Shown here piece by piece: positions 5,201-47,386 of a DNA stretch of 64,000 nucleotides (positions within the stretch are counted from its first letter, which is position 1; every line of letters begins with the position of its first letter). The DNA comes from a virus. The notes below the pieces were generated by a model. That model saw only the letters and a program-made list of their open reading frames with translations, did not search any database and was not told where the DNA came from. The DNA is taken from positions 64,001 to 128,000 of the IMG/VR virus record IMGVR_UViG_3300010430_000004. One strand, 5' to 3'. A program made the position numbers and the translations under genes.

Positions 5201-8200
5201 AATGACTAGAACTATAACTACAAATACTACTGCAACTTTAAGTTCTAATACATTTAATGCCTACGACACAGACAATGGACCTACCGCTTCTTTGGAAGAT
5301 AGCTTTGGATCTTTGTTTAATTTTTCTAACTATAAAGCCTTGATGCAAGCCAAAAATGTACTAGATCCATCTGGTGATGAAAACTCTATATTATATAAAT
5401 CAGTTATATGGGGTGCTGGTGGAGAAAAATATAAAATAGGTTACACTTATCCTACTGCTCCTAACGCTCCAATTTTAAGTACAGTTGTGGTTAGAGACGA
5501 AGTAGATATTAAAATTTCTATAAAATCAGGAAATTCAGTCACCACTTCTATTGATGGCACTACTGAGTGGAATGTATCTATAACACCAAATACCCCTGTA
5601 GCTGGTACTGACCAAGTCACATATACATATACTGGTACTGGTACTGCTCCAAATCTCGCACCTCTTACTGGTGGAGAATATGTTAATATAAAAGAAACTT
5701 CAGGATTTAATGTTTTAAATAAAGGCATATTCAGAGTTTCAGATGAAGTTGGTTTTACTCCAACTGCTACATCTTTTAGTATAGTCAGAGCAAATGGGGA
5801 AGCTATAGCAGAAACAGACGCACCTACTCTTGTAGCAGCTGCTATTGTTTTTTATCTGTCTGACACTACCACTGCTCTTGAAGTGAAAGACTATATTGAT
5901 GCTAACCTTTCAGACTATATAGCTGCTACACTATTAGACGATAACGGAACCTCTGGCGCTGGTGAAATAAACAGAAGCACATACGAAGAAAGTGGCTTTA
6001 CTTTTTCTGAAGTTTATTTACTCGATGGTGTTAACTGGGTCTTAATGAATGATCTTTCATCTTCTCCTCAGTTTACTTTTAAAAGAAATCTCAACTTTAT
6101 TTCTGGCGGAGGCTATGCCTTTAATGATGGAGAAGTTGTAAAATTAATACCTACTACTTTTAGCCAGCTAAATGAGTTTTTAAATACACTATCTGTAACA
6201 GGTTTCTCAACACTTGGAACTGTTAAGCTTACAAATAGAGACGAGGCCCTTGAGCTTGGAACCCAAGTACTCGGTTCAGCTGGTGCGATACAGATAATTG
6301 GTGGATCAGGAAATAAAGTTGTTTCTCCTGTAATCAATCAATCAGTAGAAATCGATAATCAATATATAAAAACTTCTCTAGGGGCAGCTGCTACTTCAGG
6401 TATTAACCCTGATCAGTGGGTCAAGCTTGTCGCTCTAGACAATCAAAACAAGATTACAAATTTCTCAAATGTAAATAGAATAAAAATAACCCCAAATACA
6501 CCAACAGCTAATAAATCACTTATCCAAATAAGCAACTCCCAAGATGGAGAAAGACATTTTGGTGCTCCAAGAAGATTCGTAAGAGATCGTGGAAGAACTT
6601 TTAAGGTTGAATTCCAAGGTAGTCTTGTTTGTATTAGCCATGACGGTATATCTGCCAGTCCAGCTTTTCAAAAAGAAGTAGAGCTAAACGATGCTGCTGG
6701 TGGAACTATTAGTGTATTTCGTGGAATAAACAGCAATCTAGCTACCTATGTTATTGAGAGTGGTCTGGCCACCTTTAAAGCAATGGATCATGGTGACTTC
6801 CTAACAGTTTCTGGTTTATCTGATTCAGAAAATAACGGCACTTTCAAAGTAATCCAAATATCTTCTGATGGCTTAACTGCCACTGTAAGAAACCCAGATG
6901 CTGTAAATAGTCTTCCAGATGCTACTATAACTATTACAAATAACGCTAATATAACCAGTGATACTTTTTCTGTCAATGGAACTTCTCTAGTAGAAGGTGT
7001 AGACTTTGCTGCTGGAGTTGATGATGAAGCTACTGCTGCAAATCTTGCAGCTGCTATAGCAGTTATTGTAGGGGTTACAGCTGTAGCTGATACAAATATA
7101 ATTACTGTTACTTCTGATACTCAAGGTGTAATAGTTCCTATTTCTTATACAGATAGTGGAAGTGGAGTTGCTGCTACAGTTTCTGATCCTCAACTTACTG
7201 GTGAAACTTTTGCAGATGCTAATCTAGTAGGAAATGCTGAAATTAGAGAAGGCGACACCGTTATTTTTGGTTCACCTTTTAATATTCTTAATCAGGGAAG
7301 ACATAGAGTTATCAGAACCTATAATGATTCTATTTATATAGAAAATGATAAAGCCGTTGAAGAAATGGTTGATATCGTAGACAATTTAATTTCAACTGGT
7401 GCTGATGCGACTACTGAATACGATGTTTTAAATAATAATGAATTTATGAGAATCCAATGGACTGGTACAGGCACAGAGCCTGATTTAGGCTTGCTTAAAG
7501 TTGGAGATATATTAACTATCGGTACTGATTTTAATGCAGCAAACCAAGGCGAATTTGCCATTGTAAAACCTAAATCTGCTCAATCAGAAATAACTAGAGT
7601 TACAACTGTCCCATCGACAGAAATAACTACAGGAACTCACTTTTTGCTAAATAATGCTGGTGATGTAATAGAATATTACGTTTGGTATAATAAAAATGGC
7701 GGCGGTGGAGACCCAGGTTTGGCCGGAAAAACTGGAGTCGAAGTTGCTATTACTCTTGTTGACACTGACGAAGAAATTGCCACTAAGACAAAAAATCTTT
7801 TGGATCCTCTTGGTGATTTTACTGTTGGGTTACAGTCAAACGTACTTACAATAACTACTGTTGGTAAAAACTTTACCACAAATTCAGCCGATGGTGATAT
7901 TGGTGGAAACTTTTTAGTTGAAACATTACAAGAAGGCAATGTTACCTATGTTGACTTAATTAATCCAGGGTTTGCCACTGAAACTGGAATCACTGTAAGT
8001 GATGTTTTTGAAACCCATCGCCCATCGTTTAAAGTTTACGAATACGAAGCTTCTGTTGAAAATGACGTATTCAGTATTGCTTCTGATTATTTCAATGAAA
8101 ATAACATTGGAACATGGACCATTGAAGAAGTTCTTGACCGTGATACTATAATTGTTTCTGGAAATATGACTGCTTTAGATGAAACACCACTGTTAAGCAA

Positions 8201-24705: not shown

Positions 24706-26913
24706 ATGCCAAATAAGACAAAAGCAAAAATTGCAAATATAGGTGAGGCTCTTGGTAAAAAAGCTAAAGAGTTTACTTTCATTGATCCTCCTATGGTTGA
24801 CGCTCCTTTTACCCAGATACGAAACCTGGATGATTCCAATCGTCAACTCCCAGATCCTAGCAAAACCCTCAAACCTGCTATGGGCGTTGAAAGAATAGAA
24901 TTTAGCGCAATAGAACTTTCTACTAAAGAAAAATTTAACGATGGCACTTCAGTGTACAAAATGATCAAAGACGACCCCAGAGTTAGATTTTTTGGAGAAG
25001 TCGATGGTACCAATACCTTTGGAGGTTCAAAGACTGGTTTTACCATAACTTTTCTTTCTACTGCAAATGAAGGTTTTGAAGTAACTTATTTTGGTACTGG
25101 CATAAATCTTATGATCCAGCAAGCAGCCAACGATGGTAGATATATGGAGGTAGTTGCCGATGGCGTAGTGCAGCCCAATATAGTTGTTGGATCTTCTACA
25201 ATTTTAAATGTTAGGAACACTAAAGTAAGGTCAATTTATAATGCTGTAAAAGGACAAACACTAGGTATTCACACAGTTAAATTTAAAATTGGTCCATCTG
25301 GCTCTTTGCCTATTAATGGTATAGAAATACTCAACGAGTCTACTCAAATTCAAATTCCTCAAGGGGAAATTTTTGCTGCTGGAAATAAATATGCAAACGA
25401 TACTTTAGTTACAACAGATTATAATGCTGATTTTGACAATTCACCAGTTCTTAATGGTCGTGGTGGACGAGTGTCTATTTATATGACTCCCCAAGGCGAA
25501 ATTAAAAAAGCAATTCAGCAAACAGATAACACGCAATTAAATTTATCTTTAGTTGATCACTCAAATGAAGAAGTTATTAGCAGAATTAATTGGAGAGAAT
25601 TTGGCCTAAATAGAGCAGATGATTTTAGTACTCTTACTTCTAGCAATTCAGACAGGGCATTTACTCTAGACGATGGTGCTACTACCTTAATTGGAGATGA
25701 CGTTAGAACTGGAAGTACAATGGGGGTTAGACCTAGCCTTACAGGAGACAAATTAACCTTTACTTTCATTGGAACTGGACTAGACTTTTACTGCGAGCAT
25801 TCGGTAACAAGTAACACTGCTCATGAAGTTATTATCGATGGTGTATCGGTAGGAAACTTGGTTCAAATAGATTCCACCAAAACAGAAAAAATAGTTTCAG
25901 GGCTTCCCTATGGTTCTCACACTGTACAGATATCAAAGATAGATGCTTCTTCGAATATAGATATTGAATATTTTATAGTGTATGGACCTAAAAAGCCAAC
26001 TATTCCAGACAATGCCCAAGAAATTAGCGAATATTTTTTAATGGCTGATTATGACGGTACTACTGCTACTGGAACTGCTGTTGCTGATCAACTTCAAAGA
26101 CCTAAAGGTGTTTTACAAAAATGTTCAGAGAAAGAGCTGGTTTATTCTGGAACTTGGATTCAAAGTGGAGGGGTTCAGCCAGACAATCCTTCTGGATTTT
26201 TCATAAATACCTCAACCTTAAACGACTTTTACGAGTATACGTTCACAGGAACTGGTATAGTAATTCATCACGCTGGTACTGTGAGTGGCACTTATAGTTT
26301 TGAAGTTCAAATAGATGGCGCAACTAATGATGCTGGAGTAGCAAGAAGTAACGTAAGTAACGATGGTTCTGGAAATTACAGTACAACCGTAGCGACAAGT
26401 AATGCCCCTGTAAGATTAGAATTTACAGGTCTCACAATGGGCGCACATACTATTAAAGTAACTCTAAAAACTGCTGCTAGAAATATGGGAATGGGAGCTT
26501 TATATATAATAACCCCTATTCACTTCCCCAATACAAAATCTGGCTCTCAATCCATGAGCCCTGGAACTCAACTTCAAACAAAGACTGCTAGTGGTGGAGT
26601 AGATTTAGGAAAAGCTAAAGCTTGGGCCAAATACAGTACATTGGATGGCAGCATAATATCGTCACATAATGTATCGGCCATTATAGAGGTGAGTACTCAA
26701 CTTGTTAAATTTTATTGGGACACACCATTTAAAAGCGAACCAACCATTGTTGCTACCACTTCAGGTACTCAGTCTGCTATACCTAGAGGGATAGAAGACA
26801 ACGGTACAGGTTTGGCAGATGGCACAATGAAGCCAGGTGTAACTATAGGTTGCGATAGTGTTTCTAACTTTTATTCTGTTGTTGCTTACGGTGAACTGGA
26901 AGGAGAAGAATAA
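24706..26913 (+). CDS. Second fibre protein, paralogous to the C-terminal third of the 2798-aa fibre
   Basis: Shared DHSNEE, RAFTLDDG, KIVSGLPYGxHTV and FIxYGPK blocks; C-terminal AKAWAKY domain. Confidence 0.7.
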   Translation: MPNKTKAKIANIGEALGKKAKEFTFIDPPMVDAPFTQIRNLDDSNRQLPDPSKTLKPAMGVERIEFSAIELSTKEKFNDGTSVYKMIKDDPRVRFFGEVDGTNTFGGSKTGFTITFLSTANEGFEVTYFGTGINLMIQQAANDGRYMEVVADGVVQPNIVVGSSTILNVRNTKVRSIYNAVKGQTLGIHTVKFKIGPSGSLPINGIEILNESTQIQIPQGEIFAAGNKYANDTLVTTDYNADFDNSPVLNGRGGRVSIYMTPQGEIKKAIQQTDNTQLNLSLVDHSNEEVISRINWREFGLNRADDFSTLTSSNSDRAFTLDDGATTLIGDDVRTGSTMGVRPSLTGDKLTFTFIGTGLDFYCEHSVTSNTAHEVIIDGVSVGNLVQIDSTKTEKIVSGLPYGSHTVQISKIDASSNIDIEYFIVYGPKKPTIPDNAQEISEYFLMADYDGTTATGTAVADQLQRPKGVLQKCSEKELVYSGTWIQSGGVQPDNPSGFFINTSTLNDFYEYTFTGTGIVIHHAGTVSGTYSFEVQIDGATNDAGVARSNVSNDGSGNYSTTVATSNAPVRLEFTGLTMGAHTIKVTLKTAARNMGMGALYIITPIHFPNTKSGSQSMSPGTQLQTKTASGGVDLGKAKAWAKYSTLDGSIISSHNVSAIIEVSTQLVKFYWDTPFKSEPTIVATTSGTQSAIPRGIEDNGTGLADGTMKPGVTIGCDSVSNFYSVVAYGELEGEE

Positions 26914-45406: not shown

Positions 45407-45614
45407 TGATTACATAAACAATATAATAGTAAAGACTAAATATTCTTATTCTCTTAATGATAGAAGTTTTCACATGGAAACCCACTGGTCTAATTATTGT
45501 ATGGAAGATTTCGTAAGTGTAGCTGGATTTACTAATACTGAAAATTACGATGAAATTGAAACAGAAGATATAGCCACGGATATAGAAGACCATGATCATT
45601 ATAGCGACGAGTGA
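45399..45614 (+). CDS. Small paralogue 3 of a three-gene family
   Basis: Core KTKYSYSLNDRSFHMETHWSNYCMEDFVSVAGFTNTENYDE. Confidence 0.75.
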   Translation: MNDDYINNIIVKTKYSYSLNDRSFHMETHWSNYCMEDFVSVAGFTNTENYDEIETEDIATDIEDHDHYSDE

Positions 45615-46290
45615 TACTCATTATAGGCACGAAAAAGTGGAGCTAGCTCCAGGTGATGTGTTTATTCATGCCGGAGACAACAACGCTGGTGGACCAAGCT
45701 GTGCTCGTGATTTTATTGAATGGGTTGGCGAACTTAATTACAAACATAAAATAATTATTGCAGGCAACCATGATAATGCCTTTGCCGATGATCCCAAGTA
45801 TATTGAGCAATTATGTAAAGATAATGGGGTCATATACCTAAACGATTCTGGAGTAGAGATTGATGGGGTTAAGTTCTGGGGAAGCCCATGGACACCTAAG
45901 TATGGATTAGACATTTATGTATTTAACGCTGCACGTTCAGTAACCGAACAAGCATTCTTAGGTTTTAAATATCCATTAATAGAAGAAAAGTGGGCTCTTA
46001 TCCCTGAAGATACTGACGTATTGATTACCCACGGCCCAGCTTATGATGTTCTTGACGTAAACAAAAAAGGCATACCTTGTGGGTGCGTAGAGTTGAGAAA
46101 AGCCATAGAAAAAATAAAACCACAGGTTCATATCTTTGGTCACATTCACGAAGGCGCTGGAGATACTAAAATAAATGAGACTGAATACTATAACGTGGCT
46201 TACTTTGGTAAGATTACAAGGCACTCTCGTAACGAATACACTATTGAAAAAAATCCAGCAAGCATGATTTATATTGACGATAATAAATAA
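45592..46290 (+). CDS. Metallophosphoesterase, MPPED2/239FB-like
   Basis: SDTH, IHAGD, IAGNHD, GSPWTP, LITHGP, CGC, HIFGHIHEG. Confidence 0.85.
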   Translation: MIIIATSDTHYRHEKVELAPGDVFIHAGDNNAGGPSCARDFIEWVGELNYKHKIIIAGNHDNAFADDPKYIEQLCKDNGVIYLNDSGVEIDGVKFWGSPWTPKYGLDIYVFNAARSVTEQAFLGFKYPLIEEKWALIPEDTDVLITHGPAYDVLDVNKKGIPCGCVELRKAIEKIKPQVHIFGHIHEGAGDTKINETEYYNVAYFGKITRHSRNEYTIEKNPASMIYIDDNK

Positions 46291-46296
46291 TTGAAT

Positions 46297-46639
46297 CTCC
46301 AGTCTGGACGGTGCGGTGTCGAAAGCCCACGTTCTTCCTGGACCGAGGGTTATGTGCGAGGCATATTAAAATGGTTGCTAAGATCTGCCCTTTACTTGTG
46401 GTATAGTCCATGAACTTACCACAGCCCCTAGAGATAGGTAGCTCCTTGATCTAGTAGAGGCTCTGCAAGCCTACACTGTTACTAGACGCGTCTAGACAGT
46501 TGTTTTTAAGCCCTATTATGGGCAGAACAAGCAGCGCATGGTGGATGTAGGAAACGCCACTAGGAGTCACAATCCTCTCAGCAGCTCAATGATACGGGGC
46601 AACAGCTGGAAAACTGTGAGGTTGCGGCTCGCTTTTTTT
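46297..46639 (+). ncRNA. Candidate large structured non-coding RNA (~340 nt), class unassigned
   Basis: Longest ORF-free gap in the window; 145/300 G+C over 46321-46620; about ten helices including a GNRA loop; G-U pairs favour the + strand; ends in a T7 run. Boundaries approximate. Confidence 0.7.
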
Positions 46640-46706
46640 ATTCAGCTCAAATCTGAGCCGAGCAAAATCTTCAATAATTTCAATGACTTTATTCTCTAAA
46701 AATTTA

Positions 46707-46736
46707 CTAGCATTTTTTAATAATCCATGTTATATT
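46707..46736 (+). promoter_or_regulatory. TAGC-class promoter: CTAGCA-N18-TATATT
   Basis: One of four copies. Confidence 0.7.
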
Positions 46737-46757
46737 TAACTCAACAAAGGAAATAAA

Positions 46758-46973
46758 ATGGTTTATTTAATAGTTGTAGGCTTAATATGTACCACAGGCA
46801 CTATTGATTGTTATTCAAAAATAAATAACAAAGCCGAGAAAATAAACGTTACTAGAGAAATGACCAAAAAAGAGTGTGTAGAGAAGACAATGATTCTTAG
46901 AAAATATATAACAGACAATAAATTAGGAAAACCTATAGTTGTTTGTAGAATAAACTGGGAGAAGGTACAATGA
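46758..46973 (+). CDS. Small Cys-containing exported protein
   Basis: Hydrophobic N-terminus; four Cys; AAGGA RBS. Confidence 0.55.
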   Translation: MVYLIVVGLICTTGTIDCYSKINNKAEKINVTREMTKKECVEKTMILRKYITDNKLGKPIVVCRINWEKVQ

Positions 46974-47386
46974 ATCCAAGAACGCCTAAATTTTTTAACA
47001 ATGGAATTGAAGTCAAACACATTTCTGAGAAAAAAGGCAGAGGTGTATTTGCTACTCGTACTATTAAAAAAGGTGAAGTATTTGAAATAGCGCCCTGCCT
47101 AATAGTGCCCCATGATGAGAGTGAACTAGTAAACGACACTTTTTTAGGTTTTTATACCTATTCTCCTCCAGGGCCAACTAAGGATGAGGATGAAGAAACA
47201 TACGATGAGTGCTCAATTATTGCTCTTGGTTATGGATCTTTATATAATACTAACAAGAACCCAAACGCTGACTATGCTGTTTATTATAACCATGCTAAAT
47301 ACTTTGCGCTAAGAACTATTAAAAAGGGCGAAGAAATATTAATAAACTATGGTTGGGATGAGTCTTATACAAAGGATTTTGAATGA
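46970..47386 (+). CDS. SET-domain protein (lysine methyltransferase fold)
   Basis: KGRGVFATRTIKKGEV, GSLYNT...PNA, FALRTIKKGEEILINYG; the usual NHS motif reads NTN. Confidence 0.85.
   Translation: MNPRTPKFFNNGIEVKHISEKKGRGVFATRTIKKGEVFEIAPCLIVPHDESELVNDTFLGFYTYSPPGPTKDEDEETYDECSIIALGYGSLYNTNKNPNADYAVYYNHAKYFALRTIKKGEEILINYGWDESYTKDFE

What the first reader, a model, noticed from the sequence alone, without database searches (positions are those of the whole stretch)
46297..46639. Unassigned ~340-nt highly structured RNA
48% G+C by my count (46321-46620), clearly above the AT-rich surroundings, and ORF-free in a genome with almost no intergenic DNA. Helices seen: 46306-46334 bulged stem closing GUCGAAA; UAUGU/GCAUA (46351-46365); perfect UGUGGUA/UACCACA (46397-46423) with a 13-nt loop; CCUA-GAGA-UAGG GNRA hairpin (46427-46438); AGGCU/AGCCU (46458-46472); ACUGU-CUAGA/UCUAG-ACAGU (46475-46500); UGUUUU-GCCC/GGGC-AGAACA (46501-46529). 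A 3' domain is closed by GCAGC/GUUGC (46531/46625) and contains GUGG/CCAC, AGGA/UCCU and a CUCA/UGAG junction. Possible long-range pairs: loop GUCCA with UGGAC (46305 or 46339), loop CCAUG with CAUGG (46537), and loop GCGAG with CUCGC (46628). It does not convincingly fit tRNA, tmRNA, RNase P or a group I intron, so it may be a new large phage RNA or ribozyme.
Basis: partly seen in the sequence, partly recalled or inferred. Interest (0 to 1): 0.85.

Follow-up and report, generated by a model that had tools for sequence, protein, structure and literature searches.

The report
Modular phage RNA with widespread pseudoknot
The gene-free stretch is not one large RNA but a swappable string of small RNA folds, and its last fold belongs to an unannotated knot-plus-hairpin family that many unrelated phages, including the lab model T5, place at gene boundaries, probably to shield their RNA from degradation.

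Summary
The GC-rich, ORF-free tract is real, but it folds no better than shuffles (z -0.9), and the proposed long-range pairs are at chance level. Orthologous tracts in related phages share only the first hairpin and the 3' end. Two near-identical strains have unrelated middles, and other relatives lack the tract. It is therefore a mix-and-match island of small RNA modules.

The 3' module (46562-46639) is an H-type pseudoknot followed by a hairpin with a GCU loop. I found 32 distinct copies in unrelated phages, about 440 T5-like genome records including T5, and one tombus-like RNA virus. All three helices show compensatory changes (one pair only in stem 2). Rfam has no match. Its scaffold closely resembles the ToxI antitoxin knot, and its layout resembles coremin-type exonuclease-resistant RNAs, but it fails membership tests for both.

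Best guess (about 40%): a cis-acting nuclease barrier at transcript boundaries. Rival (about 20%): an antitoxin-mimic decoy. No expression or functional data exist. This scan's first readers had flagged the T5-like copies in 15 other genomes without follow-up, and earlier agents reported similar, possibly distinct, 27-nt knots.

The parts
45592..46290 (+). Metallophosphoesterase gene; its stop codon abuts the tract, which is probably the 3' extension of this operon transcript
   Evidence: Pfam Metallophos E 1e-12; orthologue lies 1-2 genes upstream of the tract in L094/L111/L112
46306..46334 (+). Module A: doubly bulged hairpin, conserved at the orthologous locus
   Evidence: Same bulged stem in L094/L111/L112 with changed top pairs (GGU/GCC to AGG/CCU) and a GUCGA-starting loop; one independent homologue only
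46335..46560 (+). Variable middle: a run of small hairpins (46351-65, 46397-423, 46427-38, 46458-72, 46475-500, 46501-29, 46541-60) with no detected homologue
   Evidence: Pair probability above 0.8 for 46397-423, 46510-23 and 46541-60, low or competing for the others; no significant match in 25 related records or the fetched loci
46562..46576 (+). Pseudoknot stem 1 (46562-65 with 46573-76) closing the 7-nt loop; G46566 is the one-base loop 1 and 46567-71 is the 5' strand of stem 2
   Evidence: Stem-1 cells paired 88 of 96 in 32 copies, shuffle mean 64, maximum 76; compensatory changes
46577..46609 (+). Optional hairpin inserted in the linker (0-45 nt across the family)
   Evidence: Same two-stem insert in L113 and L210; absent in minimal copies
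46610..46620 (+). A-rich linker and 3' strand of stem 2 (46615-19). This copy deviates: A opposite C and linker AAAC, where the other copies have U opposite U (31 of 32) and mostly AAGU (28 of 32)
   Evidence: A-U to C-G compensatory change in T5-like copies
46624..46632 (+). Second hairpin with a GCU triloop (3 bp here, 4-6 bp in most other copies)
   Evidence: GCU loop in 20 of 32 copies; compensatory changes in the stem
46633..46639 (+). U7 run, probable transcript end
   Evidence: Terminator-like site (1 found, 0.4 expected); U-run after the hairpin in 12 of 29 copies
46707..46736 (+). Promoter-like element of the next transcription unit (18-nt spacer, TG-extended -10)
   Evidence: Same layout downstream of the tract in L094 and L112; read by eye, not picked up by the scan

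Best explanation
The tract is an accessory island of independent small RNA modules, transcribed as the 3' extension of the phosphoesterase operon and ending at the U7 run. Modules are gained, lost and swapped between phages. The terminal module folds into a compact H-type pseudoknot (3-6-bp stem 1, one-base G loop, 5-bp stem 2, A-rich linker against stem 1) followed by a GCU-loop hairpin. It most likely acts in cis as a mechanical barrier to host ribonucleases. It would then set transcript boundaries and leave the upstream cistron, or the module array, as stable RNA. Shown: sequence, mosaicism, distribution, secondary structure by covariation. Inferred: transcription, tertiary contacts (by analogy with ToxI), barrier function.
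For: Mosaicism: L094 and L112 are 98.6% identical over a 219-nt 5' block, against 90-92.5% in the flanking genes, yet their middles align at 48%, the shuffle level (mean 44, maximum 51). L113, L115, L182 and L198 share other modules in different combinations. Three relatives go straight from the phosphoesterase gene to the next gene. Structure: 98% of cells paired and 5 of 12 pairs with double changes; slid controls 36-59%. All 9 hits of a scan that named only the loop and linker words had a Watson-Crick middle pair in stem 1 and a downstream hairpin. The full descriptor gave 20 hits against 0 on reversed sequence. Position: at least 16 copies begin within about 35 nt of a same-strand stop codon, others close a long non-coding tract, and 12 of 29 precede a U-run. 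One copy lies about 55 nt before ORF1 of a tombus-like RNA virus. The hairpin-spacer-hairpin layout, single-G loop 1 and A-rich linker match Xrn1-blocking xrRNA-WCC (PMC10321173, PMC6546385).
Against: No expression or nuclease data. In coremin the loop of hairpin 2 is free, whereas here it is conserved, which suggests a specific contact. E. coli, the host of T5, has no RNase J (own knowledge), so a 5'-to-3' block cannot be the whole story. In this window only a U-run follows the knot, so it would have to act as a 3' barrier. A single copy per genome is few for general punctuation. The orientation scan favoured same-strand ORFs and is not an unbiased test. Stem 2 covariation rests on one change, in one phage family. 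The RNA-virus copy is a single case.
Confidence: 0.4

Rival explanations
1. The module mimics a type III antitoxin, and the island is a library of RNA decoys that bind host defence ribonucleases or sensors in trans.
For: E. coli ToxI (L298) and phiTE pseudo-ToxI (L278) share with the family the modal AGGU/ACCU stem 1, G as first and U as last loop base, and AAGU before stem 2. These are the residues that form the A-minor contacts and the U:U:G triple in the ToxINEc structure (PMC8860590). A hairpin insertion in the same linker is known in one ToxI (PMC3401426). Phage pseudo-ToxI is a precedent (PMC3475682). Fast turnover of modules fits an arms race.
Against: The loop lacks the toxin-contacting A6 (7 nt against 8). 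There are no tandem repeats and no A-rich cleavage tails, and phiTE needed 4.5-5.5 repeats to escape. The same loop is kept in phages of very different hosts and in an RNA virus, while ToxI varies with its toxin. This copy has lost the U:U:G set. From memory, T5 is restricted by E. coli toxIN; I could not check this.
Confidence: 0.2
2. The module controls transcription: pseudoknot formation competes with, or modulates, a terminator (attenuator or put-like antiterminator).
For: Here the stem-2 strand overlaps an alternative 5-bp terminator-like hairpin at 46616-32. 12 of 29 copies precede a U-run.
Against: 17 of 29 copies, including T5, have no U-run. The alternative hairpin does not covary, whereas the GCU hairpin does. 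Copies mostly follow stop codons rather than promoters.
Confidence: 0.15
3. The module is a binding site for a specific phage or host protein, or a small-ligand aptamer.
For: High sequence conservation of the loop, linker and GCU triloop. Six phages place it right after the same basic 63-aa gene.
Against: That gene is absent from this genome and from the other fetched loci. Flanking genes share no pathway.
Confidence: 0.12
4. The whole ~340 nt is one large folded RNA or ribozyme, or the module itself self-cleaves.
For: The first hairpin and last module stay together at the orthologous locus. A small, highly conserved three-helix core is typical of ribozymes.
Against: Middles are unrelated between close strains. 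Long-range pairs are at chance level. The module occurs alone. No Rfam ribozyme match at E up to 5-10.
Confidence: 0.1
5. A DNA-level element (operator, origin or recombination site).
For: The stem-2 words are an inverted repeat resembling two CRP half-sites.
Against: Their spacing varies from 8 to over 50 nt. Flanking stems covary and tolerate G-U on the + strand.
Confidence: 0.03

Closest known systems
ToxI antitoxin of type III toxIN systems (E. coli, Pectobacterium) and phiTE pseudo-ToxI
   Same: H-type knot with modal AGGU/ACCU stem 1, central G-C pair (29 of 32 copies), G first and U last in the loop, AAGU before stem 2; linker insertions tolerated
   Different: One-base loop 1 and 5-bp stem 2 instead of 3-4 bases and 3-4 bp; no A6; single copy, no cleavage tails, no toxin gene; followed by a conserved GCU hairpin
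Coremin (xrRNA-C) and xrRNA-WCC of plant and fungal RNA viruses
   Same: Short hairpin 1, single-G loop 1, A-rich linker, Watson-Crick loop-spacer pairing, second hairpin; found in UTRs and intergenic regions
   Different: 7-nt loop that fits neither YGAD nor YGNNAD; 5-bp stem 2 against 3 bp; long linker insertions; conserved hairpin-2 loop; mostly in DNA phages; resistance untested
Large ornate phage RNAs ROOL, GOLLD and raiA
   Same: GC-rich non-coding tract in a phage; some carriers lie among tRNA genes
   Different: No Rfam match; the tract is mosaic rather than one conserved fold
tmRNA
   Same: Similar length, and a 9-codon frame whose stop lies in the loop of the 46397-423 hairpin
   Different: No acceptor stem or T arm, no ARAGORN or Rfam call, frame not kept in homologues

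Membership tests
Type III antitoxin (ToxI) | H-type pseudoknot with G in loop 1, A-minor AA and U:U:G junction residues | tested here: met
   Family consensus has them (against and PMC8860590); the window copy itself has A/C and AAAC instead
Type III antitoxin (ToxI) | Loop 1 of 3-4 nt carrying the toxin-contacting A | tested here: not met
   Loop 1 is a single G in all 32 copies (PMC3401426)
Type III antitoxin (ToxI) | Tandem repeats with A-rich single-stranded cleavage tails | tested here: not met
   Single copy in the genome; no long repeat in the tract; a hairpin follows the knot
Type III antitoxin (ToxI) | Cognate toxin gene after the terminator | tested here: inconclusive
   No PF13958 match in G000 or four carriers, but the control also found none; the next gene matches only an unknown PHROG
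Type III antitoxin (ToxI) | Neutralises an endoribonuclease toxin | not testable with these tools
   Needs binding or kill-rescue assay
Coremin / xrRNA-WCC | Hairpin 1, spacer, hairpin 2 layout with single-G loop 1 and A-rich linker | tested here: met
   against PMC10321173
Coremin / xrRNA-WCC | 4- or 6-nt loop (YGAD, YGNNAD or G-started tetraloop) and 8-10-nt spacer | tested here: not met
   7-nt loop in all copies; linker up to about 50 nt (PMC10520033)
Coremin / xrRNA-WCC | Stalls a 5'-to-3' exoribonuclease | not testable with these tools
   Needs in vitro digestion
tmRNA | tRNA-like domain and conserved tag frame | tested here: not met
   No call by ARAGORN even at relaxed score or by Rfam; region not conserved in L094/L112
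Rfam families (ROOL, GOLLD, raiA, RNase P, group I/II introns, ribozymes, riboswitches) | Covariance-model match | tested here: not met
   Only chance snoRNA/miRNA matches for the window, L094 and eight other carriers

The most novel reading that the evidence does not exclude
Phages assemble exchangeable arrays of small RNA folds as a decoy library. The terminal knot is a ToxI-derived mimic that, as a stable processed RNA, disarms type III toxins or related defence nucleases across many hosts, T5 included.
Probability: 0.15. Interest if true: 0.88.

Novelty: new variant of a known kind. Interest (0 to 1): 0.62.

Why it matters
A conserved, covarying RNA element sits unannotated in T5 and about 440 T5-like genome records, so its function can be tested at once in E. 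coli. If it is a nuclease barrier, it extends exonuclease-resistant RNAs from eukaryotic viruses to DNA phages and links that fold to the ToxI scaffold. If it is a decoy, it would be a broad RNA counter-defence, and the shuffled islands would be a new place to look for others. It is also a caution that GC-rich phage gaps read as one large RNA can be mosaics of small modules.

Tried and rejected
Rfam at gathering and E-value thresholds: nothing (one search gave only tRNAs in neighbours).

BLAST of the whole tract against annotated phages: only the downstream AT-rich flank matched. Exact-word scans from the middle of the tract gave chance hits. The two GTDB matches to the 3' word lack the motif context.

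tmRNA reading: rejected (see membership test). Resemblances to FMN riboswitch, RNase P, group I, CptI, pistol and HDV words came from memory, had no model support and were dropped. Stop-codon readthrough was considered by eye: the frame after the stop differs between carriers.

The H-type knot count in the tract (11 against 5.4 +/- 2.8 in shuffles) is borderline and was not used.

Sequencing runs: no RNA holder listed. The one DNA run showed no variants, and two other assemblies are identical to the window.

The ToxN search had no positive control. The paper on T5 and toxIN was not held. Paper searches found no description of the motif, but the library is incomplete. The host was not determined.

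Full report
Setting. The window lies in a 168,536-base virus record, 35.9% G+C and about 95% coding. Its one listed sequencing run is a marine sediment metagenome. The tract starts at the stop codon of a metallophosphoesterase gene and ends in a U7 run. A promoter-like element for the next gene follows, with the same layout in relatives. 46291-46757 is the second-longest ORF-free gap of the genome.

Checking the observation. G+C is 48.3% as stated, and the listed helices are complementary. Energy does not single the tract out: z is -0.94 for the whole and -1.37 for 60-nt windows. The proposed long-range five-base pairings occur as often in shuffles (3 against 3.2), and the 3' word said to pair with the 46356 loop is kept in ten carriers without that partner. 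Rfam and ARAGORN give nothing. On the sequence alone the finding would be weak; the case rests on homologues.

Orthologous locus. Following the phosphoesterase led to L094, then L111 and L112. They share two things with the window: the bulged hairpin 46306-46334, with changed top pairs, and the last 23-24 bases. L094 and L112 are 98.6% identical over 219 non-coding bases, against 89.8% and 92.5% in the two upstream genes. L094 and L111 are 99.6% identical over the tract. Yet the middles of L094 and L112 align no better than shuffles. The high identity can mean selection or recent exchange; I cannot separate the two. A syntenic relative at about 70% DNA identity and two others have no tract after this gene. 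Phages of another clade carry the same 3' end behind a primase-helicase-like gene or other genes, joined to different modules that recur in other combinations (L113, L115, L182, L198). L094 holds two copies of the 3' module. The tract is therefore an accessory mosaic. Its middle hairpins have no detected homologue, so their reality as RNA structure is plausible but unproven.

The conserved module. Comparing the ends defined a core: a 3-6-bp stem around a 7-base loop, an optional inserted hairpin, an A-rich linker, five bases that pair with the loop, a G, and after a few bases a hairpin usually capped by GCU. A scan that named only the loop and linker words returned nine viral contigs, and all nine had the stem and a following hairpin although neither was asked for. 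A wider scan added more; there members were picked partly by stem length, so those counts lean towards the model. BLAST then reached T5-like phages, where one loop base and its partner have both changed (A-U to C-G). T5 carries it between T5.049 and T5.048, and 440 records cover at least 80% of the query. Over 32 copies, stem 1 is paired in 88 of 96 cells (shuffle mean 64, maximum 76). In a 13-row alignment 98% of cells pair, with double changes in all three helices, and slid controls reach 36-59%. A full descriptor found 20 copies in 2.25 Mb of fetched DNA and none in the reversed sequences. The window copy is a deviant member, with A opposite C where 31 others have U opposite U. Its insert matches those of L113 and L210.

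Where it sits. At least 16 copies begin within about 35 bases of a same-strand stop codon, six of them after one 63-residue gene that this genome lacks. Others close long non-coding tracts, as here, or lie among tRNA genes. Twelve of 29 are followed by a U-run. One lies about 55 bases before the first ORF of a tombus-like RNA virus.

How it may work. Two known RNAs explain the anatomy. ToxI has the same modal stem 1, first and last loop bases and AAGU linker; these residues make its A-minor and U:U:G contacts (PMC8860590). That supports a compact, stable tertiary knot (inference). But ToxI's toxin-binding base, tandem repeats and cleavage tails are missing (PMC3401426, PMC3475682). Coremin-type RNAs have the hairpin-spacer-hairpin layout, and the Watson-Crick variant needs a single G in loop 1 (PMC10321173, PMC6546385, PMC10520033); they block Xrn1 and scanning ribosomes. 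Position at gene boundaries, single copy and host breadth favour a cis-acting nuclease barrier (0.40) over a trans decoy (0.20), a transcription switch (0.15), a protein or ligand site (0.12), one large RNA or ribozyme (0.10) and a DNA site (0.03). None is shown.

Novelty. No Rfam model matches the window or nine other carriers, and four paper searches found no description. Within this scan, first readers noted the T5-like spacer in 15 genomes without follow-up. Follow-up agents described 27-nt coremin-like knots after phage stop codons, which gave me the coremin lead. Look-ups with the minimal form and with the stem-2 word did not return those reports, so they may be a sister family; I could not compare letters. 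I file this as a new variant of a known kind of viral RNA knot and not as a member of ToxI or coremin. Interest 0.62: the large-RNA claim falls, but a covarying, unannotated element in T5 with a ToxI-like core is directly testable.

Noticed in passing
L297:2938-3047 (T5 24937-25046, minus strand): T5 carries the module between two small membrane-protein genes, preceded by a short hairpin whose 3' strand overlaps stem 1.
   Followed up: partly
L198:827-849 minus strand; also L113 about 5265-5295: A second H-type knot with single-G loop 1, 8-bp stem 2 and an AAG-ending linker sits in the same arrays, suggesting a wider family with other stem-2 sequences.
   Followed up: partly
L113:5293-5348 and L115:5233-5288; also L182, L198: A 56-base module is identical in L113 and L115 and recurs nearly unchanged in L182 and L198, just upstream of the knot; no Rfam match at gathering score.
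   Followed up: no
L113:5057-5125 and L115:5061-5125; also L198: Another shared module: a stem with a variable apical hairpin followed by a small purine-loop hairpin; unannotated.
   Followed up: no
L234:4035-4223 minus strand; L151, L176, L202, L208, L210: A basic 63-67-residue protein (68-82% identical) directly precedes the knot in six phages; possible RNA-binding partner; absent from this genome.
   Followed up: partly
L125:360-402: A full copy of the motif in the 5' region of a tombus-like RNA virus contig (RdRP_3 and S-domain coat protein).
   Followed up: partly
L094:1330-1480: The L094/L112 array contains tRNA-like fragments (an anticodon-arm-like hairpin and a T-arm-like hairpin) and an 11-base direct repeat, but no callable tRNA.
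   Followed up: no
L123:582-626 and L129:5476-5520, minus strand: Minimal copies with almost identical downstream hairpins in two temperate-looking phages; in L123 the next gene looks like a replication initiator (by eye).
   Followed up: no
window:46297-46308 and 46645-46657: Short palindromes flank the tract on both sides; not kept in L094/L112.
   Followed up: no
window:40007-40513 and 46970-47386: The phage encodes a SWIB/MDM2-domain protein and a SET-domain protein.
   Followed up: no
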